DNA of 10,367 nt from a virus (Duplodnaviria > Heunggongvirae > Uroviricota > Caudoviricetes). The position numbers and the translations under genes were made by a program. The stretch lies in the IMG/VR virus record IMGVR_UViG_3300032893_000479, positions 1 to 10,367 of that record, one strand, 5' to 3'. The notes below the pieces were generated by a model that was given only the letters and a program-made list of their open reading frames with translations, was not told where the DNA came from and did no database searches. Of the stretch, positions 832 through 10,367 are shown one piece after another (position 1 is the stretch's first letter; the number at the start of each line of letters is the position of its first letter).

Positions 832-1144
832 TGCGCAAATTCTCCAACTCGGCGCCAGTCATGAATAACAAAAAATGCGTCGTTCCGAATTTTGTATAAT
901 CAGGATATTCCAGATTGGTATCCCAGTAGAAATTGCCGTAGCCGGCTTCAAGGTACCGATAAGGCAAAATACCTGTTATGGGCATGCAACGTGTATTTTG
1001 TATTAAGGTTATGCCGTCGCGAATAACGGTTGAAAACATCATACCCGACTCAATCGTTCGCAACGTGATGTCGTACCTCACGTTATCGAACGTGATCGTA
1101 AAATTCTGATTTGGTAATTGCTGAAGCGGTATATTTTGCGGCAT
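824..1144 (-). CDS. Hypothetical protein (106 aa), probable tail/baseplate-associated component
   Basis: ATG start overlapping the upstream stop by 1 nt (TAATG), and overlapping the downstream gene by 8 nt. Coding is supported by operon context. No motif recognised. Confidence 0.4.
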   Translation of the reverse strand: MPQNIPLQQLPNQNFTITFDNVRYDITLRTIESGMMFSTVIRDGITLIQNTRCMPITGILPYRYLEAGYGNFYWDTNLEYPDYTKFGTTHFLLFMTGAELENLRNG

Positions 1145-1635
1145 TAGTAAAAAATCCTATGCAATATAGATTCGCTGCCACTTTGTTCGCCGCGCTTTAC
1201 CGTAGACTGATCGGTAGGTTTGCGAACATTGTTTGCCGCCAATTGTTGAAATTGCGCTTTAACAAATATTGCTTGTTTCAAATTGATAACGATTTTAATT
1301 GTTTTCCACAATTCCGGTTCTTCCTCATGCGGCATGCTAACGATAATCATATCCTGATACACATCGGACCGCGTTTGCACGATGAGCTTATCGCCGCTAA
1401 TCCAACGTTGCTTAATCGCAGCGTAAACGTCTTTAGCGTCATTTCCCGGTATCATCACGATCAAATCTATTTCCACCGGATCGATCACGCGGGCGTCCGT
1501 GATGCTGATTCCACTTTCTAGCGGATGTTCGAACGATCTGGACGTTTCGAAAATAGACGCGCGCATTGCTTCCGATGTCGGAAACAATTGCGTGTAATCC
1601 GCGTCATATAGACCAACAATTTCTTGTTCTGTCAT
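1144..1635 (-). CDS. Hypothetical protein (163 aa), probable tail/baseplate-associated component
   Basis: ATG start overlapping the TMP stop (ATGA). First gene after the TMP, where distal tail or baseplate initiator proteins are normally encoded. Acidic composition. No motif recognised. Confidence 0.4.
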   Translation of the reverse strand: MTEQEIVGLYDADYTQLFPTSEAMRASIFETSRSFEHPLESGISITDARVIDPVEIDLIVMIPGNDAKDVYAAIKQRWISGDKLIVQTRSDVYQDMIIVSMPHEEEPELWKTIKIVINLKQAIFVKAQFQQLAANNVRKPTDQSTVKRGEQSGSESILHRIFY

Positions 1636-3197
1636 GCCATCAGCCCGTCATCGTGTTGATAGATAGCGCTGTTGATATACAACTTTAAGGCGTCGCTGAT
1701 ATTTTGCGCCACTTCGTTGGCATCTTTCGCTTCGGTTATTACGTCGATTTTATCGATGCTGATTGAATTTTGCTGACTACGAGCTGTCGCCATATTTGTG
1801 ATCGAAGATGATGTCTGCGGCAGCAGCGGATTACGCGACATCATTGCTAATTGTTGTTGCGCGTTATTTGTCAGCGGATTTTCTATTTGCGGTAAATCAA
1901 CGGCACCGCTTTCTGGATTGAACATATCTTTAAATTTTTGCCATATTTCAGGTATTTTTGAAATTTTATCAACAACGAAATTGAAAACTTTTTGGACCCA
2001 GTTGAAATAAACTTCCCACGCTTTTGATGCAAACTCAGCGGCACTCGCGGCAGCTTCGCCAAACCATCGCAGCGCCTGCGCAGTTTTCGGAAAGCGTTTT
2101 TCCAGTTTGTCCAAAAATTTATCCATGCTTGCGCCAGCAGTTTCTAATGCGGCGCTAAAGCCTTTTGTAAAAACATCTGATAAGAAGTCGGCAACGATAC
2201 CGATCCATTCTTTCAAATATTTAAAAACTTCGACAACTTTATCGATTGCCTCTTTAAACAACGGATATTTTTTTGCCAACTCACCGATCACGCTTGCGTG
2301 ACCGTTTAAATACGCATTGAAATCGTCCCAAATAAGCGCGGCGGCGGCGGCCACTGCAATCAACGCCATCCACGGGGCGAGAAATGCAATGGTTGCAATC
2401 GTCGCTCTAACGAGCGCTGGAACAAGGATTCCCGATAATGCAACGCCAAGCGATACAAAAAATTTCGTCATGAATGCGCTGTTGTTTCGCATCCACATCA
2501 ATATTTTTTCCAGCAGTTTGAAAAACTCGGTGAGATATGGCATTACCGCCACGGCAAGCCGACGCTTGATATCTTCAAAAACTAAGTTCGTCATGCGTTG
2601 CTGAATCACGAACTTAGTTGAAATTTCGACTTGTTCTTTTGTTACAACGCCAAGTTCTTTTTGTTTGGCAATGAATTCGTCTAGCGCTTTGCCGCCCATT
2701 TGCAGCAGATTGATCGTGCCGATATCGAGACCGAAACGCTCGCCCAATCGTTGCGCTTGAATTTTGCTAAGCCCTTCGAATCTTCCCTGTATCTGCTTCA
2801 GCGTTTCGATAGGGTCGCGACCGTAACGACTCAATGCTTCAAGACTGCGCGCAAATCCTTCCGCCGTGCCGCCTGCTAGCTCCGCAGCCTGTGTCCACGC
2901 GCTATACTGCTCCGCCGATACTTTTGCTTGTTGCGCGTTTAGCCCGAGCTGTCGCGTGCTTTCAGCAACGTCGAATACCATCGATTTCAGGGAATGAAAT
3001 GCGAGAAAGCTCGCACCGAGCGACGCCGCACTTTTAACGGCATCGACAAGGTGCTTGCCGAGCATGTCGGCCGCTTTATCGGTTTTATTGAGGGTGTCGC
3101 CGAGTTGTTTGCTTTGCTTATCGGAATGCGCAAGCCCTTCGTCCAGTTTGCTGGCGTCGGATTCGAACAGGAAGTAAAAAACGTCGAGAATATTCAC
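1632..3197 (-). CDS. Tail tape measure protein (TMP)
   Basis: 521-aa ORF immediately 3' of the chaperone/frameshift pair. Predicted largely alpha-helical, with a long central hydrophobic segment (approx. residues 246..290, FFVSLGVALSGILVPALVRATIATIAFLAPWMALIAVAAAAALIW) typical of TMPs, plus regularly spaced aromatic residues. Apparent start is GTG at 3195..3197, preceded by AGGA at about 10-nt spacing. The stop overlaps the next gene as ATGA. Confidence 0.8.
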   Translation of the reverse strand: MNILDVFYFLFESDASKLDEGLAHSDKQSKQLGDTLNKTDKAADMLGKHLVDAVKSAASLGASFLAFHSLKSMVFDVAESTRQLGLNAQQAKVSAEQYSAWTQAAELAGGTAEGFARSLEALSRYGRDPIETLKQIQGRFEGLSKIQAQRLGERFGLDIGTINLLQMGGKALDEFIAKQKELGVVTKEQVEISTKFVIQQRMTNLVFEDIKRRLAVAVMPYLTEFFKLLEKILMWMRNNSAFMTKFFVSLGVALSGILVPALVRATIATIAFLAPWMALIAVAAAAALIWDDFNAYLNGHASVIGELAKKYPLFKEAIDKVVEVFKYLKEWIGIVADFLSDVFTKGFSAALETAGASMDKFLDKLEKRFPKTAQALRWFGEAAASAAEFASKAWEVYFNWVQKVFNFVVDKISKIPEIWQKFKDMFNPESGAVDLPQIENPLTNNAQQQLAMMSRNPLLPQTSSSITNMATARSQQNSISIDKIDVITEAKDANEVAQNISDALKLYINSAIYQHDDGLMA

Positions 3198-3756
3198 TAT
3201 CGATTATTCCTGTTCGCATGCTCTGCGGCTAAGTATTCGTTGGCGCGCCGTACAATCAGAACCTCCGCCATATCACAGAGGTCTTGCAACGTGTAGACCG
3301 TGGCCAGCTCATGCGGCGTCGCTAATCTTTCGCCGGTGACTGCGCCCGCAATTGGGTCAACATTTGCGTAATCAATGCTTGGAACTTGCCCGAGAATTGA
3401 TCGAGGTAATGTGACAGCGCGCCTTTCGCGAAAAAACTGCAATTGTATTCCATCATTGCCCACTCGATCCGTATCAGCGCCTCGTAATCTGGTACATGGT
3501 TGTTGATGAGATCGAGAGAACCCAACCGCAGAGGGTCGGCGCCCGCAATGGGCACCGCAACATGCGACAGAATTTTTATCATCAGCGCTTCGTTAGTTTT
3601 GTAGTCGCCAATTTTCGGCGCGGCAGTCAGCGGATATTGCGTGACAATTTCACGACCTGCCGTTGCCGAAAATTTACTGATGATAAAAATTTTTTCCGAT
3701 CCGTCCATGAGCTTTATCGGTTGTTCTTTTGGCTGTAGCAGCGGAAGATGATTCAT
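3197..3756 (-). CDS. Tail assembly chaperone, long form produced by programmed -1 frameshift (approx. 186 aa: frame 0 from 3756 to the slippery site, then -1 frame to 3197)
   Basis: Frame-0 codons AGT TTT TTC (plus coordinates 3438..3430) give, after a -1 slip, CAG TTT TTT CGC..., which continues open for 77 codons to a TAG at 3197..3199 that overlaps the TMP start. The -1 frame ORF has no credible independent start (the track's start is a GTG in the middle of the chaperone gene with no RBS). Confidence 0.55.
3322..3756 (-). CDS. Tail assembly chaperone (short, in-frame form; gpG/gp E-like role)
   Basis: 144-aa ORF immediately 5' of the tape measure gene. An overlapping ORF (3197..3463) in the -1 frame runs from inside this gene to exactly the TMP start, and a T_TTT_TTC slippery heptamer lies in the overlap. 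This is the conserved chaperone frameshift architecture of tailed phages. Confidence 0.65.
   Translation of the reverse strand: MNHLPLLQPKEQPIKLMDGSEKIFIISKFSATAGREIVTQYPLTAAPKIGDYKTNEALMIKILSHVAVPIAGADPLRLGSLDLINNHVPDYEALIRIEWAMMEYNCSFFAKGALSHYLDQFSGKFQALITQMLTQLRAQSPAKD
3430..3436 (-). other. Putative -1 programmed ribosomal frameshift slippery heptamer T_TTT_TTC (X_XXY_YYZ)
   Basis: Plus-strand gaaaaaa at 3430..3436 is TTTTTTC on the coding strand, positioned as T TTT TTC relative to the chaperone frame. It lies in the overlap between the chaperone ORF and the -1 frame extension ORF. A short GC-rich palindrome (CGCG AAAGG CGCG) follows immediately but is a weak and atypically close stimulatory element. 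Confidence 0.55.
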
Positions 3757-4199
3757 AGTGCGGACACCTTATTTTCGAATGCGAAAATGTAGGGCTTTGA
3801 CTTCATGCGCCCCTGACTCGCAACAGGATTGCCCGGAATGGCCGACGTGATAGCCCCTTTCGACAAAGTGATCACATTGCCGCTCGGGTAAACCAGCGTC
3901 AAAGTTATGATATCGCGTGCGGGCCGCTTGCCTGCGGCAACACGATTCGCCTCCGCAATAATGCCGAGCGCGATATCGTCGAGCGAACCGGGCACCACGG
4001 CCAGCGTTGCCATGATGGGGTTAGGCTTTGACCATGTGATCAAATTGCCGTTGAGCCCCATTGCAGTTTGCGCCAGCTCCAAGGCTGCGATATCGAGCGG
4101 ATCGATATCGTCGGCGAACTGCGTGATAGGCACGCCGACCGGAAAAGTAACGCTAGCCTTAACCGTGGCGATTAGACCAAAACCTGAAATATCGGACAT
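3753..4199 (-). CDS. Putative tail tube protein
   Basis: 148-aa ORF with ATG start and a good RBS, positioned between the putative sheath and the tail assembly chaperone. Size and position are typical of myovirus tube proteins. The final 4 nt overlap the chaperone start (ATGA). Confidence 0.55.
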   Translation of the reverse strand: MSDISGFGLIATVKASVTFPVGVPITQFADDIDPLDIAALELAQTAMGLNGNLITWSKPNPIMATLAVVPGSLDDIALGIIAEANRVAAGKRPARDIITLTLVYPSGNVITLSKGAITSAIPGNPVASQGRMKSKPYIFAFENKVSAL

Positions 4200-4215: not shown

Positions 4216-5730
4216 TTAGATTAAGTTGTGAGTGCCTTCGACTTTGCGGATCACGTCATCTTTCGAATAGATCAGCAAATACGTTGCTTTATAGATGGTT
4301 TGATTGTTGACGACTTCCGGCACGATAACGACATTGTACCAGTAGCCAATGCCTTGCACTTGTTGCCAAGCGTTGCTATCACCGCTCTGCAACGCAATAT
4401 CGGCCTTTTGCAACGGCGTAAGCACTTTGCCGATGCTAATTGTACCGTTGAACAGTGCTTGATCTACGCCGTCTTGAAGTAGATTGAGGCATATCGAGCG
4501 ACCGGCTTCGTCAGCATCGATTTTCGGCAGCACCAGCAACGCGTTCATGAACGACGCAGTGAGATACGACGACAACCACTGTTCGTTGCCGTAAACGTTT
4601 TGATCTGCCGGCGACGTATTCGGACCAAACAGCGAACCGCGCTGATAGAAAGATACGTTCTGACCGTTGATCTGCGTGTTACCGTAATAGTTAACGCGAA
4701 TCGCATCCAGCGAGTCCGACGTGGGCGTATCGGTAACCAATGCGGTCACCGGAAATTGTTGGAACATATAGTTGGACGTTGAATTTTGTTTCGTGTAGTC
4801 CGTTGCCGCAAGCTGAATCATCGGAATCATTTCCGGGTATTCGTTCGGATAATTTATCGGATCGTTTATCGTCATGGCGGTCCCCGCGATTTGACCGATC
4901 GCAGACGCGATTACCGACGCAGACGCTTGATCACAGGCGAGCATGAATTGGTACGAGACACTATTTGACGCGTTCCATTCTACAATTTCTGCCCAATCGC
5001 CTATGTCCGTAGTTGCCATGAACAAAAACGAACCGTAATTATTACTTATCTGATCTGCTGCAATAACTGCATCTAATGCCGACGAACCAGCCGTGCCGAC
5101 AACATCGATTGCGCCATCCGCAACGTACAGATTTAGCAAATTTCCAACATCGGTAGCACCTGAGCCGGCCTGTAAAAATGTAAGTGAACCTGCGCCCGCA
5201 ACACCGCCAACAACAACGAATCGATTATTCGTCGAATCGTAGGTTACCGTGCAAGTGGTCAGCTGCGGATCGGAGTTCGTTCGCAAACGCGTTTGCAACA
5301 ACGAAGCAATGTTGGCGTAGCTAGTGGCAGTCGAGAAATTGATGCTACCGATTGAGATAGGGCCGCCACCAGTGCTTACCGATACGGTACCGGCCGTAGT
5401 GGAAATAAGGCCGCTCAGAGCAGTCGGCGATTTTCCGCCGAATACACGGGCAGCAAACGCGTTCGGCTGCCAGCCAGCAAAACAAATCTTTTTCGCCTGG
5501 GTTAGCTGTTTGGAAACCCAGCCAAAATAAAACGCTGCACGACGATACTCTTCTGATGAAGTGCCAAAGAATGCGGCAACATCATCTACCGATGTGTATT
5601 CGATGATGTTATCGGTAGATACTAACGGATTGCTAGTAAAAATTCTTCCGATAAGCTCGCGCACTTGCACAATAGCCGAACCGCCGACACCAGACCGAAT
5701 ATCAACATATTTGCGGTAATTAATGGACAT
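4216..5730 (-). CDS. Putative contractile tail sheath protein (DUF3383-like by recollection)
   Basis: 504-aa ORF with ATG start and a strong RBS. Located directly 5' of a ~150-aa tube-sized gene, then chaperone/frameshift and tape measure, which is the canonical myovirus order sheath-tube-chaperone-TMP. Size is typical of phage sheaths. Contains a G/S/T/A-rich low-complexity internal region. Family assignment was not verified by search. Confidence 0.6.
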   Translation of the reverse strand: MSINYRKYVDIRSGVGGSAIVQVRELIGRIFTSNPLVSTDNIIEYTSVDDVAAFFGTSSEEYRRAAFYFGWVSKQLTQAKKICFAGWQPNAFAARVFGGKSPTALSGLISTTAGTVSVSTGGGPISIGSINFSTATSYANIASLLQTRLRTNSDPQLTTCTVTYDSTNNRFVVVGGVAGAGSLTFLQAGSGATDVGNLLNLYVADGAIDVVGTAGSSALDAVIAADQISNNYGSFLFMATTDIGDWAEIVEWNASNSVSYQFMLACDQASASVIASAIGQIAGTAMTINDPINYPNEYPEMIPMIQLAATDYTKQNSTSNYMFQQFPVTALVTDTPTSDSLDAIRVNYYGNTQINGQNVSFYQRGSLFGPNTSPADQNVYGNEQWLSSYLTASFMNALLVLPKIDADEAGRSICLNLLQDGVDQALFNGTISIGKVLTPLQKADIALQSGDSNAWQQVQGIGYWYNVVIVPEVVNNQTIYKATYLLIYSKDDVIRKVEGTHNLI

Positions 5731-5732
5731 AG

Positions 5733-6266
5733 TTAAACCCTCTTGAGTTGCACATCTATGGCGGTTAATTGTCTTTGTGCGCTGCGCACGGTGTCGGTAT
5801 GTGTAAGTATTACATCAAAACTCGGCTCAGCTTGCCACTGCGATCTGTCGTTATCACTTTTCGGATTCGGCACCGTCGTAATCCTCAAAATATTTGCGCC
5901 GCCCGCGATCAACGCTTTTTGAAACGGCCAATCGTTCATGATCAGCGCGAATCTGTTCAACAAATCCGATGCGGTGTCACTTGTAACATCTTCAGGGGTG
6001 CTGTTAACCACTGCGTTAATTTGGACCGTTGTCATTATGACCTGCTCAACGATACGCCAATAATTCGTACCATCCCATTGCGAATATTTTGCTGGTGATC
6101 CGTAACGTTGATTGACAACGATATTCATCGACAAATAACGCGATTGCGGGCGCCCTTGTTGTGTCGGTTGAAAATTTTGCACAAAAGGCACGTCGCTATA
6201 GCCGGCCGCATCCAACAATGGGCGCGCTGTTGAAAGAATCAGACGAATCAAATCTTTTTCTTTCAT
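5733..6266 (-). CDS. Putative tail terminator / sheath-proximal neck protein (hypothetical)
   Basis: 177-aa ORF with ATG start, ending 2 nt upstream of the putative sheath gene start. In myovirus modules the gene immediately 5' of the sheath is commonly the tail terminator or tail completion protein. Assignment is by synteny only. Confidence 0.35.
   Translation of the reverse strand: MKEKDLIRLILSTARPLLDAAGYSDVPFVQNFQPTQQGRPQSRYLSMNIVVNQRYGSPAKYSQWDGTNYWRIVEQVIMTTVQINAVVNSTPEDVTSDTASDLLNRFALIMNDWPFQKALIAGGANILRITTVPNPKSDNDRSQWQAEPSFDVILTHTDTVRSAQRQLTAIDVQLKRV
5738..5742 (-). promoter_or_regulatory. Shine-Dalgarno motif (GAGGG) for the putative sheath gene
   Basis: Minus-strand sequence AAGAGGG TTTAACT ATG: GAGGG lies 7 nt upstream of the ATG at 5728..5730. 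Confidence 0.5.
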
Positions 6267-6709
6267 CAGTCGTAACCTATGCCCGGCATGTCGTATCCGA
6301 GCCCCGGCGTGTCGTATGCAAGTGCGCTAGGCACGACGATAGGGCCAATATCAACGGCTATCGTGTATGCCCAACCGTCTAGCACGTACCAGTCATTATC
6401 GTTGATCATCTGATAACGCCTGCCGTTCCATTCGAACTGGTCGCCACCGTCGCCCCGATCGAGAGAAATTATCCCCTCTTGGATAAAAAGTTCAACGTAA
6501 TTTTTTTTCAAATCGAAACCAAGCGCGGCGTATTTAGAACGATTGACTGCTTGTACGCTGCAATCGCCGACATCTATTCCAAGTTCGAAAGTTGACACGT
6601 AATAGCCAATTTCATTGAGCTGTCGGCTTGCGCATTTGAAATAACGTACCGTTTGCGGCGCGATCAGCGCAAGAGCACTGTACAACAAGTTTGATCCGGG
6701 CACGCTCAT
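6266..6709 (-). CDS. Putative neck / tail completion protein (hypothetical)
   Basis: 147-aa ORF with ATG start, ATGA overlap with the upstream gene and 1-nt overlap with the downstream gene. Lies between the adaptor-type genes and the gene preceding the sheath. C-terminus carries a short tandem peptide repeat (PGLGYDMPGIGYD). Confidence 0.4.
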   Translation of the reverse strand: MSVPGSNLLYSALALIAPQTVRYFKCASRQLNEIGYYVSTFELGIDVGDCSVQAVNRSKYAALGFDLKKNYVELFIQEGIISLDRGDGGDQFEWNGRRYQMINDNDWYVLDGWAYTIAVDIGPIVVPSALAYDTPGLGYDMPGIGYD

Positions 6710-7245
6710 TTGCTGCCAACCTCGCTTGTTAGCGTGGCAATCATATGGTCGCTATCGTTCAGCGGCTTATCGCTGACGCCGCTATAATCTGGTGGATTCG
6801 GCCCCTTGAGCGCTGCCGCCGCTTCGCCGACAGTCTTCCCGGTAATTTTGCGCCCTTGTCTGCGCCATAAACGCAATACCATCGTAATGGGCGACAAAGG
6901 CGGTGTAAAAATGTTGGATAATGTTTGAAGAATATCGCCTTCGGCCTGTTGTGCAACGCCTTTCAAAACATCTTCAACGGTCAATTCGCCGCGCATAGCC
7001 ATTGCTGCACCTTCGCCCATTAACTTTTTCCATTCTTCGCCGCGCTGCGCTTCCGTTGTGCGCATGAATGAGCGCGAGCCACCGTCGCGAAATTCCTGTA
7101 TCGCCGCCACGTAGGCCACGGGGGTGCCGTCCTCGTATTTTGCAGACTCAAACCAACCGACACGCGATGCCAACTTGCTGAGCTTTCTGCTTTCTCGCTC
7201 GAATCTCAGCCGTGAGGCAGTTTTCTTATGCACCAATTTGCCCAT
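6706..7245 (-). CDS. Putative head-tail joining / head closure protein (HK97 gp10-like)
   Basis: The ORF track begins at a TTG (7246..7248), but the second codon is ATG (7243..7245) and overlaps the upstream stop as TGATG, so I place the start at 7245 (179 aa). The segment RVGWFESAKYEDGTPVAYVAAIQEFRDGGSRSFMRTT resembles the HK97 gp10 family pattern. Basic N-terminus. Position fits a neck gene. Confidence 0.45.
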   Translation of the reverse strand: MGKLVHKKTASRLRFERESRKLSKLASRVGWFESAKYEDGTPVAYVAAIQEFRDGGSRSFMRTTEAQRGEEWKKLMGEGAAMAMRGELTVEDVLKGVAQQAEGDILQTLSNIFTPPLSPITMVLRLWRRQGRKITGKTVGEAAAALKGPNPPDYSGVSDKPLNDSDHMIATLTSEVGSK

Positions 7246-7688
7246 CAAAAACTACCGCCAAATTTGCGGAAGCCTGCGCGCTCGCAGCTGCCGCCAATAT
7301 AAAAACCGCCTGACGATTTGACGCTGAAAAAAGCCCACAAACGCATGCCGTATGGCGTCAGAGATAGCCATTGCTGCCACGCATTTTTAACGGGTGGCGC
7401 TTGCACGGTGACGCTAACCTTATCGATCGATGACGCAGTGACCGCGCCGACTTGGCCTTGACCGCGCTGCGCGTTGAGATTTGCTTGCCACTGCATCATG
7501 TGAGCGGTCATCAAATAAAGCGCCTCGGTGATTTCTGCCGCGCTCATCAGACACCATTCCTGCGGATACAGATAAACTTTCGCCGTATCGAAATACGCTT
7601 GTATATAGGCGTCGGAATACGCCGAAGTGCTGGCGAATGCCGGAAATTCTGCGCGAAAATCTGCAATGACAATAACAATATCGCTCAT
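7245..7688 (-). CDS. Putative head-tail adaptor/connector protein (DUF4054-like by recollection)
   Basis: 147-aa ORF with ATG start and 4-nt ATGA overlaps to both neighbours. Small protein between a head-proximal gene and the neck genes. The N-terminal sequence (MSDIVIVIADFRAEFPAFAS...) resembles the phage adaptor family I recall as DUF4054; this was not verified by search. Confidence 0.45.
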   Translation of the reverse strand: MSDIVIVIADFRAEFPAFASTSAYSDAYIQAYFDTAKVYLYPQEWCLMSAAEITEALYLMTAHMMQWQANLNAQRGQGQVGAVTASSIDKVSVTVQAPPVKNAWQQWLSLTPYGMRLWAFFSVKSSGGFYIGGSCERAGFRKFGGSF

Positions 7689-9454
7689 GATTTTAACCCG
7701 TAAGCCGGTTTGACTCCCGAATAGTTTATCGTGTTTTCGTTCGAATAGACGGGGCTTTTGTAATTTTGCTCAGGAATCAAAATAGGCGGCGTGTAATTGT
7801 TGTCGAAAGTATCGCTAAACAACGACAAAGCGCGAGTGCGCAATCCGTTCAATGGTACGTAAAGGGGATCGCCGATTGTGTAAACGCCGTACCCCACCGC
7901 AGTGGCAGAGTCTTGATACAAACAAATTTCAGCTGCATTAAAACCGGAATAAATTGCGCTAATGTACAAATTAGAATACACGGCACCGGCTTCGCTTGGC
8001 TCAGTAACACATGCCGAAGAAAATACCGCACCCGAGCGAATAGCGCTAAGCACTCGGTTTTCGCAAGTGTACGTACTAGTTTTGAGCTGCCATCCGTTCG
8101 CGTAGCAATAAGCCGCAAGAGCGTCCCAAATTTGACGCATGCTCAAACCTTGCCACACCAATGAAAAACTTGTCGTCGTACCGTCTGCTTTTAGCACGAT
8201 GTTAGTCGTTGTCAAATCAATTTTTGCTGCCGTCGACGGTCCGCGCACGCCGAAAGTGGCTACGTAATTGCCGAGTTCATTTTTTATTTTTACTTGCATG
8301 ACGGGGCTGTTGCCAGCCGAATAATAGTTATTCCATTCGGCATCTTCGCTGCTGTCCCAACCGGCGACAATATTGCTGCCGGTCTGGATGTCGCCAGCTG
8401 CAAGGGGTGTCGTCCAACATACGCCTATCGGAAATAATGGCGCGGCCGGAGTGCTGGTGTGGAACACTGCGATGGCACCGAGCGCATATGAATAATCTGC
8501 AGCGACTTCAGCGGGACGATGCGGACCGTAATAACTATCGTCGAGCACCGCGCGCATGAATACGCCGCTGGTCGGCACGAAGCCGTCATTTCCGGGCGCT
8601 TCTATTGCGCCCGGACCTTCGTCGGGAAATATGCTCGGCGGATTGCCGCGATAGTATTGCGCAAGCCTGTCATCCAGATAGTACGGATAATTATCGATAA
8701 ATAAATTTTCTGTTTGTCGTCCGTTGCGATCGACGATGTTCGGAATGTTGAATTTCGGCGGTAAATGCACGGCAAGCGTGGTCACCCACGCTTGCCGGTA
8801 CGTCTGCGAGTAAAGTTTTGGAATACTCGTTCGATTTAATTGTTCGGCAGCAATGCTGCGATCGATGATACCTTTTGCAAAAGTCTCATCGTAGTTTGTC
8901 GATACCGGCATGTTGAAAACAGATACAACATCAAGCGGTGTCGTGTACGGGTGCAAATATTTTTGCGGATTGACTTCGACCATGAACGCGGGCAGCGTCG
9001 GCTTCGGACTGATCGGCAAATTTTGCAAATTGGCGTTTGCTTGCGCCTGCGTAGGATCAGGATTTGCAACAATGCCGACAGTAGAAATGTTTGGATTTGC
9101 TGCGATGTAATCGGAAATTTTGAAAAGATTTTTGCAGATCACTGAATTGGTCAAATCGCCAATACCGGGCAAATAAGGGAAATCGATCGCAGGACAAGTG
9201 CCAATGAAAAGAATAACTTTCAGGCCGCCTGCGACAGGATGATTAATCATCGTATCGAGAAAAGTTTTAACATCGGCCCACGTAGTCAATCTTGCCGATG
9301 TATCCAATGCGCCGGACAATAGTAATTTGTTTTGCGCGGGAACGTTGCGTTGCGCCATGTAATAATTGAGCACATCGACAGCGGCCGGCACTGACGAACG
9401 TGCGACAACGAGAATATCCGCAGGCGTGATAGGCACGGGGGTGATGATCGCCAT
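7685..9454 (-). CDS. Large hypothetical structural protein (589 aa); candidate major capsid or head decoration protein by position, function unknown
   Basis: Long uninterrupted minus-strand ORF with ATG start at 9452..9454, preceded by GGAG (plus coordinates 9463..9466) at 8-nt spacing. Sits immediately 5' of the putative head-tail adaptor gene and overlaps it as ATGA. Composition is N/S/T/Y/G/P-rich. I recognise no motif. Confidence 0.5.
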   Translation of the reverse strand: MAIITPVPITPADILVVARSSVPAAVDVLNYYMAQRNVPAQNKLLLSGALDTSARLTTWADVKTFLDTMINHPVAGGLKVILFIGTCPAIDFPYLPGIGDLTNSVICKNLFKISDYIAANPNISTVGIVANPDPTQAQANANLQNLPISPKPTLPAFMVEVNPQKYLHPYTTPLDVVSVFNMPVSTNYDETFAKGIIDRSIAAEQLNRTSIPKLYSQTYRQAWVTTLAVHLPPKFNIPNIVDRNGRQTENLFIDNYPYYLDDRLAQYYRGNPPSIFPDEGPGAIEAPGNDGFVPTSGVFMRAVLDDSYYGPHRPAEVAADYSYALGAIAVFHTSTPAAPLFPIGVCWTTPLAAGDIQTGSNIVAGWDSSEDAEWNNYYSAGNSPVMQVKIKNELGNYVATFGVRGPSTAAKIDLTTTNIVLKADGTTTSFSLVWQGLSMRQIWDALAAYCYANGWQLKTSTYTCENRVLSAIRSGAVFSSACVTEPSEAGAVYSNLYISAIYSGFNAAEICLYQDSATAVGYGVYTIGDPLYVPLNGLRTRALSLFSDTFDNNYTPPILIPEQNYKSPVYSNENTINYSGVKPAYGLKS

Positions 9455-10367
9455 TACAACAACTCCACGCAGACGGCGCGAGCGCTCATCGTGAACTCAT
9501 TCGGCGACACGATCGACAAGTTATTTATGCCGATAATCAAACGCACGTTGATATCGACAGATATGCAAGGATAATTTGTCGGACCGAAAGCGAAATCTCC
9601 GTTGTAAATGGGTATTGCGTCGCTAGGCGAACCGCCTTTTTTAATTGTCAATGTGCCGCCCGTATTCGACACGTGGAAAGGAATTTCAAAAGAGCCGACT
9701 TTTCCGGCGTATGTGCCGCGTGTGCCTTTTATGGCGACAAAAATTCGTCCAACAAGATCGCCTTGTCGGTTATTGGTGCCGGCCATTGACAAGAATTCGC
9801 CGCCAGAAGTGAATTGATCGAACGTAAAACGCGGTACGACTACGTCCACGCTTTGCGAAAATCCTTCATTCGCAAATACCACGCTATTGTTATACAGCGA
9901 GTCGATGCCGTAGCCGGCATGGAACAACGGCGAAATCGATGAGATTAGATTGCCGAACCCAAAAACGATATTTTGGCTTTGCAACTGATAGCCCGCATTT
10001 CCGCTCCCTATGCAAATACTGAAAGGGCCGGAAATACTGTTATTCATCCCCCATATGAAATTATAAATAACGTTCGCATTCGGATCGAAAGTAATATCGT
10101 CAAAAGTGATAACCGATTGTTGATATGCTTTGCCGAATTCTGCCGGCAATTGTTTGATTGCCGCTTTTGTTTTGATATTGTTGTAGCCGCTTGTCGCATC
10201 GCCGATATCAATATTGATGCTATACAGCATCGCGCTTAATGCCGGCACTACGCCGGACATCGAACACTGAAGTGCATTGCCAAAAAATCGAATTTCATTG
10301 ATCACGGTGGCGACGCCGACAGTCAGCATCGGCAGCTGAAAGACTGCGACTTTTTTAGCAGCGGTGC
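9454..10367 (-). CDS. Hypothetical protein, probably virion (head-associated) structural protein; 5' end likely outside the window
   Basis: Minus-strand ORF 9454..10329 (291 aa from the first ATG). The same frame stays open with no stop from 10330 to the window edge at 10367, and there is no Shine-Dalgarno motif before the ATG at 10329, so the true start is probably beyond the window. Stop TAA overlaps the ATG of the next gene by 1 nt (TAATG). Protein is rich in N/S/G/T/Y/F, which suggests a beta-rich structural protein. No family recognised. Confidence 0.5.
   Translation of the reverse strand, partial: TAAKKVAVFQLPMLTVGVATVINEIRFFGNALQCSMSGVVPALSAMLYSINIDIGDATSGYNNIKTKAAIKQLPAEFGKAYQQSVITFDDITFDPNANVIYNFIWGMNNSISGPFSICIGSGNAGYQLQSQNIVFGFGNLISSISPLFHAGYGIDSLYNNSVVFANEGFSQSVDVVVPRFTFDQFTSGGEFLSMAGTNNRQGDLVGRIFVAIKGTRGTYAGKVGSFEIPFHVSNTGGTLTIKKGGSPSDAIPIYNGDFAFGPTNYPCISVDINVRLIIGINNLSIVSPNEFTMSARAVCVELL
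9463..9466 (-). promoter_or_regulatory. Shine-Dalgarno motif (GGAG) for the 589-aa gene
   Basis: Minus-strand sequence GTGGAGTTGTTGTA ATG: GGAG lies 8 nt upstream of the ATG at 9452..9454, inside the 3' end of the upstream gene. Confidence 0.4.

What the first reader, a model, noticed from the sequence alone, without database searches (positions are those of the whole stretch)
1632..3197. Short tape measure protein predicts a short contractile tail; apparent GTG start
Tail length in tailed phages scales with TMP length at roughly 0.15 nm per residue (established for lambda-like and other phages). A 521-aa TMP therefore predicts a tail of the order of 75-80 nm, which is short for a myovirus. 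The central hydrophobic block (plus coordinates approx. 2328..2462) is a typical TMP feature thought to take part in membrane channel formation. The start appears to be GTG, overlapping the TAG of the frameshift extension, with an AGGA motif about 10 nt upstream.
Basis: partly seen in the sequence, partly recalled or inferred. Interest (0 to 1): 0.4.

Follow-up and report, generated by a model that had tools for sequence, protein, structure and literature searches.

The report
Ordinary tape measure gene, small myophage
The 521-residue gene is a genuine, full-length tail tape measure protein of a small contractile-tailed phage; its GTG start is well supported, and the roughly 75-80 nm tail it predicts is normal for this group of phages.

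Summary
There is a minus-strand ORF at 1632-3197 (521 aa). It starts at GTG, which shares one base with the TAG of a -1 frameshift extension, and AGGA lies 10 nt upstream. A 45-residue hydrophobic block sits at 2328-2462.

The protein is a tape measure protein (TMP) on three grounds:
- **Homology:** it matches PHROG TMP families and the virion-located Pa193 gp41.
- **Synteny:** the order is sheath, tube, chaperone with a conserved T_TTT_TTC frameshift, TMP, tube initiator, plug, hub.
- **Conserved ends:** both termini align with relatives.

An in-frame TAA three codons upstream, together with invariant residues from position 4, leaves GTG as the only canonical start.

Structurally solved phages of the same simple-tail type give 1.4-1.5 Å per residue, or about 25 residues per tube ring (Pam3, XM1, Pa193). 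That predicts a tube of about 75-79 nm with about 20 rings.

"Short for a myovirus" holds only against T4, P2 or PB1-like phages. Within this very large family (2,018 cluster representatives at E≤1e-30) the top 150 hits are 451-754 aa long, with a median of 546, and 34% are shorter than 521.

This is a new member of a known kind and of low interest. The tail length itself remains an untested inference.

The parts
3322..3756 (-). Tail assembly chaperone, gpG-like, 144 aa (the zero-frame product)
   Evidence: It sits between the tube gene and the TMP. It is 64% identical to the equivalent gene in the closest relative L003. Its position matches BcepB1A gp15, annotated 'pre-tape measure frameshift protein'. 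It has no Pfam or PHROG hit of its own.
3430..3436 (-). -1 slippery heptamer T_TTT_TTC, at codons 108-109 of the chaperone
   Evidence: It is the only X_XXY_YYZ site in the chaperone frame within the part scanned, 3322-3560, which covers the overlap with the -1 ORF. The same or a T_TTT_TTT heptamer, followed by a 75-79 codon -1 extension, is present in BcepB1A, Bordetella IFTN2, L003, KLEP17-4 and Lbo-JY16. No significant downstream RNA structure was found (z -0.34).
3197..3430 (-). -1 frame extension of 77 codons, giving a predicted 186-aa gpGT-like fusion; it ends at TAG 3199..3197
   Evidence: Frame arithmetic and translation. PHROG 3976 at 7e-12. 54% identity to the out-of-frame region of L003 by tblastn.
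3208..3211 (-). AGGA Shine-Dalgarno-like motif, 10 nt upstream of the GTG
   Evidence: L003 has AGGA at the equivalent place upstream of its ATG.
1632..3197 (-). Tape measure protein CDS, 521 aa, GTG start, TGA stop
   Evidence: PHROG 34923, 8125, 2276 and 9570 'tail length tape measure protein'. tblastn hits to annotated TMPs of BcepB1A and of Bordetella, Vibrio, Shewanella and Yersinia phages. The family profile hits the Pa193 gp41 TMP, PDB 9b45. The AF2 model is 80% helix at low confidence.
3153..3188 (-). Conserved N-terminal motif, residues 4-15 (LDVFYFLFESDA), which fixes the start
   Evidence: F7, F11 and D14 are invariant, and L4 and A15 are at least 90% conserved across 19 homologues, whose own Met lies 0-2 residues before the equivalent position. 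Pa193 gp41 aligns from its residue 5.
2823..2828 (-). Junction R124/Y125, where this protein and its nearest relative lack a 29-residue segment present in the other 17 aligned family members
   Evidence: Alignment A1, columns 129-157 (coordinates).
2703..2732 (-). Most conserved core motif, GLDIGTINLL (residues 156-165)
   Evidence: G156, D158, T161 and L165 are invariant. The motif lies inside the stretch matched by all TMP PHROGs and inside the region aligned to Pa193 gp41.
2328..2462 (-). Central hydrophobic block, residues 246-290; likely two membrane-span-length helices separated by R264
   Evidence: Kyte-Doolittle analysis. Its position is conserved as a hydrophobic stretch across the family (columns 276-340). 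AF2 predicts helix with pLDDT below 50.
1635..1721 (-). Conserved C-terminal helix and tail, residues 493-521 (...DDGLMA); proposed hub/spike anchor
   Evidence: L504, D516 and G518 are invariant, and D492, A511 and D517 nearly so. Helix 493-514 is predicted. The analogy is to Pa193 gp41 residues 840-858, which bind the tail tip and hub (PMC11456595). The anchoring role here is inferred.
1144..1635 (-). Downstream Dit-like / tube-initiator gene; its ATG overlaps the TMP stop (ATGA)
   Evidence: Pfam Dit_like at 6.6e-11. Overlap confirmed. Same order as in L003, BcepB1A and the Bordetella phages.

Best explanation
Window 1632-3197 (minus strand) encodes the full-length tail tape measure protein of a small phage of about 40 kb class with an E217/Pam3/XM1-type simple contractile tail.

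Translation starts at the GTG. It is probably coupled to termination of the -1 frameshifted chaperone (TAGTG overlap), and it ends coupled to the tube-initiator gene (ATGA overlap).

Proposed mechanism, by analogy with solved phages of this tail type:
1. The largely alpha-helical protein is held by the G/GT-like chaperones.
2. Its conserved C-terminus docks on the hub/spike.
3. Tube and then sheath rings polymerise around it until its N-terminus is reached and the gateway/terminator protein caps the tail.

At 1.43-1.51 Å per residue, or about 25.4 residues per ring, 521 residues give a tube of about 75-79 nm. That is about 20-21 rings including the initiator, so about 19-20 sheath discs.

After contraction the protein is expelled. 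Its central hydrophobic hairpin may then insert into the inner membrane as part of the DNA conduit.

Shown here: gene identity, start, frameshift context, conservation and hydrophobic block. Inferred: the ruler function for this particular phage, the tail length, C-terminal anchoring and any membrane role.
For: Homology:
- TMP PHROGs, best 1.6e-38.
- tblastn hits to annotated TMPs in 104 phage records.
- The family profile hits the virion-resolved Pa193 gp41 TMP at 2.2e-07, aligned from the N-terminus.

Synteny:
- The window runs adaptor, neck, collar, gateway, sheath, tube, chaperone, TMP, Dit-like, Pam3_gp18 plug, E217_gp41 hub.
- It is colinear at 37-64% identity with the closest relative L003, and in the same order as BcepB1A and Bordetella IFTN2.

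Frameshift: a conserved T_TTT_TTC with a 77-codon extension ending at the TMP start.

Start codon:
- TAA 3 codons upstream, with conserved residues from position 4.
- The relative L003 has ATG at the same place, with AGGA upstream and a TAATG overlap.
- Lbo-JY16's TMP is also annotated with a GTG start.

Full length: the C-terminus ...DDGLMA aligns with the family end.

Shape: DSSP of the AF2 model gives 80% helix.

Calibration:
- Pam3: 588 aa, 840 Å, 22 rings plus initiator (PMC9942802).
- XM1: 479 aa, 18 rings (PMC10457771).
- Pa193: 858 aa, about 1300 Å (PMC11456595).
- IFTN1/2: 537 aa, 82/89 nm (PMC10269795; CDS length).

Phage context: the window is 100% identical to part of a 22.7-kb contig carrying a terminase fragment, portal, scaffold, MCP, spike, sheath initiator and wedges, with no other TMP candidate in the 19.4 kb read.
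Against: - No Pfam family reaches E<=0.01 for this protein, although some relatives carry PF10145.
- NCBIfam gives only far-sub-threshold hits.
- The AF2 model has mean pLDDT 57, so the helical content is indicative only.
- Residues 427-492 are predicted non-helical and fall in the family's variable region, so their contribution per residue to length is uncertain.
- Negative-stain tail lengths reported for the near-identical Bordetella phages range from 75 to 109 nm, so that calibration point is noisy.
- No particle, proteomic or expression data exist for this metagenomic contig.
- The last 3.2 kb of the larger contig was not read.
Confidence: 0.9

Rival explanations
1. The gene is the TMP, but translation starts at the first ATG (codon 45). 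That would give a 477-residue protein and a correspondingly shorter predicted tail.
For: ATG is the commoner start codon, and codon 45 is the first ATG in frame.
Against: - Residues 4-15 are among the most conserved in the family: F7, F11 and D14 are invariant across 19 homologues.
- They also align with the N-terminus of Pa193 gp41.
- Relatives start with Met at the position equivalent to the GTG.
- No Shine-Dalgarno-like motif precedes codon 45 in the 20 nt shown (AAACCGATAAAGCGGCCGAC), whereas AGGA precedes the GTG.
Confidence: 0.03
2. The protein is chiefly a tail-associated lysin or tail fibre, as several homologues are annotated ('tail-fiber/lysozyme protein', 'lytic tail protein'), and not a length ruler.
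For: PHROG 12278 'tail fiber protein/lysozyme' (6e-13) and PHROG 2013 'lytic tail protein' (4.9e-09) match residues 127-354. Acinetobacter phage homologues are annotated as lysozyme-like. Some family members of 660-697 aa carry PF18013, the phage tail lysozyme domain.
Against: - The region shared with those proteins is the TMP core, not a lysozyme domain.
- No Pfam lysozyme or other enzymatic domain is detected in this 521-aa protein.
- The lysozyme-bearing relatives are longer by about the size of that domain.
- Gene position and the frameshifted chaperone are those of a TMP.
Confidence: 0.03
3. The gene is a TMP homologue, but the locus is a tailocin, a contractile injection system or a decayed prophage. 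The predicted length would then describe a headless particle, or nothing that is assembled.
For: The window alone lacks recognisable capsid genes. Two orphan ORFs (7685-9454 and 9454-10367) sit where a capsid gene was expected.
Against: - The window is 100% identical to part of a 22.7-kb contig that carries a terminase fragment, portal, MuF-like protein, scaffold, cement and major capsid genes directly upstream.
- Head-to-tail adaptor, neck, collar and gateway genes are intact.
- All ORFs are uninterrupted and translationally coupled.
- Whether it is a free phage or a prophage cannot be decided.
Confidence: 0.04

Closest known systems
Tape measure proteins of simple-baseplate myophages: Burkholderia phage BcepB1A gp14 (666 aa), Bordetella avium phages vB_BaM-IFTN1-8 (537 aa), Vibrio phage BT-1011 (520 aa), Shewanella phage 1/41 (491 aa), Pseudomonas phage KLEP17-4 and Leptolyngbya phage Lbo-JY16 (488 aa)
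   Same: - Detectable sequence homology, including the N-terminal FxFLFESDA motif, the GLDxGTINLL core, the central hydrophobic block and the C-terminal DDGVxA end.
- Identical gene order.
- The same T_TTT_TTY -1 frameshift in the preceding chaperone.
- Similar length.
   Different: - Only 23-33% identical to any isolated phage; the best metagenomic relative is 43% identical.
- It lacks a 29-residue segment after residue 124 that the other 17 aligned family members have.
- It lacks the lysozyme domain present in the 660-697 aa versions.
Pseudomonas phage Pa193 / E217 (Pbunavirus) tape measure protein gp41, PDB 9b45
   Same: - The family profile aligns to its N-terminal 288 residues at E 2.2e-07.
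- The surrounding tail and neck proteins belong to the Pfam families defined on E217: gp27, gp28, gp29, gp31, Gp32 and gp41.
- It has a C-terminal helix plus a short tail, as in the part of gp41 seen bound to the tail tip and hub.
   Different: - Pa193 gp41 is 858 aa with a putative transglycosylase domain and measures a tail of about 130 nm.
- This protein is 521 aa with no enzymatic domain.
- No sequence match was obtained beyond the N-terminal half.
Cyanophage Pam3 and Vibrio phage XM1, 'minimal' myophages with solved whole-tail structures
   Same: - The same simple tail architecture; the Pam3_gp18 plug family is present.
- Comparable TMP size (588 and 479 aa) and short tails (22 and 18 rings).
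   Different: Homology between this TMP and the Pam3 or XM1 TMPs was not tested, because their sequences were not retrieved. They serve only as a mechanistic and metric calibration.
Lambda gpH with gpG/gpGT and T4 gp29: the classical tail-length rulers (from established knowledge, not tested here)
   Same: The ruler principle, a chaperone pair made by a -1 programmed frameshift just upstream, and hydrophobic segments in the TMP.
   Different: No sequence similarity was detected. Lambda is a siphovirus, and the T4 tail is far more complex.

Membership tests
Phage tail tape measure protein (TMP) | Significant sequence similarity to proteins established or curated as TMPs | tested here: met
   PHROG 34923 (1.6e-38), 8125, 2276, 9570 and 3336, all 'tail length tape measure protein'. 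The family profile hits Pa193 gp41 (PDB 9b45) at 2.2e-07. tblastn hits annotated TMPs.
Phage tail tape measure protein (TMP) | Encoded directly downstream of a tail assembly chaperone pair produced by a programmed -1 frameshift (gpG/gpGT arrangement) | tested here: met
   T_TTT_TTC at 3436..3430. The 77-codon -1 extension ends at a TAG overlapping the TMP start. The arrangement is conserved in five relatives. The frameshifting itself has not been demonstrated.
Phage tail tape measure protein (TMP) | Gene lies between the tube/chaperone genes and the tube-initiator/baseplate hub genes | tested here: met
   Order: sheath (4216-5730), tube (3753-4199), chaperone, TMP, Dit-like (1144-1635), plug (824-1144), hub (1-831). 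The order is the same in L003, BcepB1A and IFTN2.
Phage tail tape measure protein (TMP) | Long, predominantly alpha-helical protein without a compact globular fold | tested here: inconclusive
   The AF2 model is 80% helix by DSSP with helices up to 58 residues long, but mean pLDDT is 57 and pTM 0.33. No coiled-coil predictor was available.
Phage tail tape measure protein (TMP) | Pfam TMP domain (PF10145 PhageMin_Tail or equivalent) | tested here: not met
   No Pfam family at E<=0.01, although homologues P0032, P0033 and P0037 carry PF10145. Many accepted TMPs lack a Pfam hit, so this lowers the formal assignment only slightly.
Phage tail tape measure protein (TMP) | Central hydrophobic, membrane-span-like segment(s) | tested here: met
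   Residues 246-290, Kyte-Doolittle maximum 2.26. The position is conserved across the family. Membrane insertion was not tested.
Phage tail tape measure protein (TMP) | Present inside the tail tube of the virion, with its length setting the tail length | not testable with these tools
   This needs particles, cryo-EM or mass spectrometry, and length mutants. The only support is by analogy with Pam3, XM1 and Pa193.
E217/Pam3/XM1-type simple contractile tail module | Co-occurrence of the family-specific neck, sheath, tube, plug and hub proteins | tested here: met
   Pfam E217_gp28, E217_gp29, DUF3383 (E217_gp31_N), E217_Gp32, Pam3_gp18, E217_GP41 and DUF4054 (E217_gp27). Spike, sheath initiator, a 400-aa gene at the position of L003's weak Baseplate_J gene (no Pfam hit of its own in L004) and Wedge1 follow in the extended contig L004.

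The most novel reading that the evidence does not exclude
This TMP and its nearest relative both lack a 29-residue segment after R124 that the other 17 aligned family members have. That is about one tube ring's worth of ruler, given 25-26 residues per ring in Pam3 and XM1. The lineage could therefore be a natural one-ring-shorter tail variant. Paired with its longer relatives, it would offer a ready-made natural test of the ruler mechanism in simple myophages. My evidence neither supports nor excludes this, and family lengths show no ring-sized quantisation.
Probability: 0.2. Interest if true: 0.25.

Novelty: new member of a known kind. Interest (0 to 1): 0.12.

Why it matters
It matters little beyond correct annotation. 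The work confirms the gene call, the non-ATG start and the frameshifted chaperone for an uncultured phage. It also gives a testable morphological prediction: a tube of about 75-79 nm with about 19-20 sheath discs. Finally, it shows that TMPs of about 450-600 aa are the norm across a very large, mostly metagenomic family of simple-baseplate myophages, so a 'short' TMP should not be flagged as unusual there.

Tried and rejected
- **Pfam and NCBIfam on the TMP:** no usable hit.
- **Exact-sequence look-up of the TMP:** nothing found. The larger contig was reached through the neighbouring 589-aa protein instead.
- **More TMP-length versus tail-length calibration points:** the BcepB1A paper is not held, the Yersinia P744 paper gives no tail length, and no papers were found for KLEP17-4, Lbo-JY16 or BT-1011.
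- **RNA structure downstream of the slippery site:** not different from shuffles (z -0.34).
- **Ring-sized quantisation of TMP lengths in the family:** none. The best Rayleigh R was 0.18 at an 18-aa period, against a null 95th percentile of 0.22.
- **Alternative ATG start at codon 45:** rejected on N-terminal conservation.
- **Lysin reading:** rejected because no enzymatic domain is present.
- **Tailocin reading:** rejected because head genes are present on the extended contig.
- **AF2 model of the 589-aa orphan:** unusable at pLDDT 32.
- **Fold searches:** none run, because both models were low-confidence.
- **Plus-strand ORFs inside 1632-3197 (for example 2317-2604 and 2994-3296):** treated as antisense shadows of a strongly supported CDS and not searched separately.
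Full report
**Observation**

The window carries a single minus-strand operon of tail and neck genes. The ORF at 1632..3197 encodes 521 residues.

- Its first codon is GTG (3197..3195).
- The G at 3197 is also the last base of the TAG that ends the -1 frame ORF 3197..3463.
- AGGA lies at 3211..3208, 10 nt upstream.
- An in-frame TAA sits three codons upstream. Before the first ATG at codon 45, the only candidate starts are the GTG and non-canonical codons: ATT at codon 3 and CTG at codons 10 and 18.
- The stop TGA (1634..1632) overlaps the ATG of the next gene.
- Plus-strand 2328..2462 encodes residues 246-290, a 45-residue hydrophobic block with a Kyte-Doolittle 19-residue maximum of 2.26. It is the only such block in the protein.

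**Identity**

Pfam gives nothing for this protein. PHROGs gives five 'tail length tape measure protein' families, the best at 1.6e-38. tblastn against 50,697 phage records finds 104 records, all below 60% identity. The best hits are annotated TMPs of 39-47 kb myophages: BcepB1A, Bordetella avium vB_BaM-IFTN phages, and Vibrio, Shewanella, Yersinia, Pseudomonas, Leptolyngbya and Campylobacter phages.

A profile built from 19 metagenomic and genomic homologues hits the tape measure protein gp41 of Pseudomonas phage Pa193 (PDB 9b45). That protein was located in the tail lumen by cryo-EM. The hit has E 2.2e-07 and is aligned from residue 5 (PMC11456595).

The neighbouring genes belong to the Pfam families defined on phages E217 and Pam3:

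| Role | Family | Window coordinates |
|---|---|---|
| Adaptor | DUF4054 / E217_gp27 | 7245-7688 |
| Neck1-like | PHROG 222 | 6706-7248 |
| Collar | E217_gp28 | 6266-6709 |
| Gateway / terminator | E217_gp29 | 5733-6266 |
| Sheath | DUF3383 | 4216-5730 |
| Tube | E217_Gp32 | 3753-4199 |
| Tube initiator | Dit-like | 1144-1635 |
| Plug | Pam3_gp18 | 824-1144 |
| Hub | E217_gp41 | 1-831 |

The order is identical in BcepB1A, Bordetella IFTN2 and the closest metagenomic relative L003. Against L003, every gene from adaptor to hub is 37-64% identical, and the TMP is 43% identical.

**Chaperone frameshift**

The 144-aa ORF 3322..3756 precedes the TMP. Its codons 108-109 lie in the heptamer T_TTT_TTC (3436..3430). 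This is the only X_XXY_YYZ site in that frame within the part scanned, 3322-3560, which covers the overlap with the -1 ORF. A -1 slip there opens 77 further codons ending at the TAG that overlaps the TMP start, giving a 186-aa fusion.

The same heptamer, or T_TTT_TTT, with a 75-79 codon extension ending at or next to the TMP start occurs in BcepB1A (annotated there as gp15/gp15'), IFTN2, L003, KLEP17-4 and Lbo-JY16. The extension peptide is 54% identical in L003. No significant RNA structure follows the site. This is the classical gpG/gpGT arrangement that marks the gene downstream as the TMP (established knowledge).

**Start codon and completeness**

In the 19-sequence alignment, F7, F11 and D14 are invariant and L4 and A15 are nearly so. 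Homologues begin with Met zero to two residues before the position of the GTG. L003 has ATG at the equivalent place, with AGGA upstream and a TAATG stop/start overlap. The Lbo-JY16 TMP is also annotated with a GTG start. Together with the upstream TAA, this leaves GTG as the only canonical start. The C-terminus (...YQHDDGLMA) aligns with the family's conserved end (D516 and G518 invariant), so the protein is full length.

**Shape**

An AlphaFold2 model built on the alignment has low confidence (mean pLDDT 57). It is 80% helix, with helices up to 58 residues long. Residues 427-492 form a non-helical stretch that coincides with the family's variable region. The hydrophobic block is conserved in position across the family and is followed by a conserved DD..AF..G.(D/N)S..GE..KKWP motif.

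Relative to the other 17 aligned homologues, this protein and its nearest relative lack 29 residues after R124.

**Tail length**

Calibration comes from solved phages of the same simple-tail type, plus isolated relatives of this TMP:

| Phage | TMP length | Tail | Per-residue / per-ring | Source |
|---|---|---|---|---|
| Pam3 | 588 aa | 840 Å; 22 tube rings plus initiator, rise 37.2 Å | 1.43 Å per residue; 25.6 residues per ring | PMC9942802, |
| XM1 | 479 aa | 18 rings plus initiator | 25.2 residues per ring | PMC10457771, |
| Pa193 | 858 aa | about 1300 Å | 1.51 Å per residue | |
| Bordetella IFTN1/2 | 537 aa | 82 and 89 nm, negative stain | the series ranges from 75 to 109 nm, which shows the noise of such measurements | |

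Applied to 521 residues, these figures give 74.5-78.9 nm, or about 20-21 rings including the initiator. It refers to the tube; an overall tail measured on micrographs would include the baseplate and neck.

**Is it short?**

Compared with Pa193 (130 nm), or from general knowledge with T4 and P2, the answer is yes. Within its own family it is not.

- Isolated relatives have TMPs of 488, 488, 491, 520, 537, 581 and 666 aa.
- An exhaustive profile search of 1.84 billion cluster representatives finds 2,018 relatives at E<=1e-30 and 40,096 at E<=1e-3.
- The top 150 of these are 451-754 aa long, with a median of 546, and 34% are shorter than 521.
- The longest versions carry a lysozyme domain.
- Lengths show no ring-sized periodicity.

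**Larger TMP elsewhere?**

The window is 100% identical over all 10,367 bases to part of a 22,694-bp ENA contig. The 19.4 kb I could read adds, upstream, a terminase fragment, portal (570 aa), MuF-like protein, scaffold, cement protein and major capsid protein. Downstream it adds the spike, sheath initiator, a 400-aa gene at the position of L003's baseplate J-like gene, and a wedge protein.

The only genes larger than the TMP are the portal and a 589-aa orphan between the head and neck genes. The orphan has no TMP similarity and is not predicted helical, although its model is unusable. This context also rules out a headless tailocin.

**Mechanism and verdict**

The gene is an ordinary tape measure protein. 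It most likely works as in Pam3, XM1 and Pa193:

1. It is held by the chaperones.
2. It is anchored by its conserved C-terminus on the hub/spike.
3. It is encased by tube and sheath until the gateway protein caps the tail.
4. It is expelled on contraction.

A role for the hydrophobic hairpin in a membrane conduit is plausible but is documented mainly for siphophages (discussion in PMC11456595). It is untested here.

The finding is a correct annotation with a reasonable morphological prediction. It is a new, divergent member (at most 43% identity to anything known) of a very large known family, and of low interest.

Noticed in passing
window 7685-9454 (-) and 9454-10367 (-); equivalent to L004 6566-9444: Two adjacent orphan genes of 589 aa and 369 aa are inserted between the head genes and the head-to-tail adaptor. 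The 369-aa gene runs off the window end; the 291-aa ORF listed in the window is its 3' part. The closest relative, L003, goes straight from a 142-aa protein to the adaptor. Neither gene has a Pfam or PHROG hit. The 589-aa gene has no tblastn hit in 50,697 phage records and only a weak sub-threshold NCBIfam hit (TIGR03790, residues 13-46). Each finds only itself among 5.8 billion proteins. Their GC content (0.47-0.50) is not clearly foreign. They could be a head fibre, a decoration protein or a moron; this remains unexplained.
   Followed up: partly
whole window; L004 6762-17128: The window is 100% identical, with no gaps, to part of a longer 22,694-bp ENA metagenome contig (ERZ27256510 k141_1519920). 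That contig supplies the missing head genes and the rest of the baseplate. The window's JGI contig ends exactly at the hub gene's stop codon.
   Followed up: yes
window 3430-3436 (-) and 3197-3463 (-): The -1 slippery heptamer T_TTT_TTC and the length of the extension (75-79 codons) are conserved across very distant hosts (Burkholderia, Bordetella, Pseudomonas, a cyanobacterium), even though the chaperone itself has no Pfam or PHROG family. No downstream stimulatory RNA structure was detected (z -0.34).
   Followed up: partly
window 6266-6709 (-): The collar protein (E217_gp28 family) is 147 aa here against 124 aa in the closest relative. The extra C-terminal ~25 residues (…DTPGLGYDMPGIGYD) look like a short Gly/Tyr/Asp-rich repeat lying outside the Pfam domain (residues 12-121).
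   Followed up: no
window 1632-2200 (-), the C-terminal third of the TMP, continuing into the Dit-like gene: GC content falls to about 0.44 across the 3' part of the TMP and the following gene, against 0.49 for the window and 0.59-0.60 in the capsid region of L004. This coincides with the family's variable region, and the cause was not examined.
   Followed up: no
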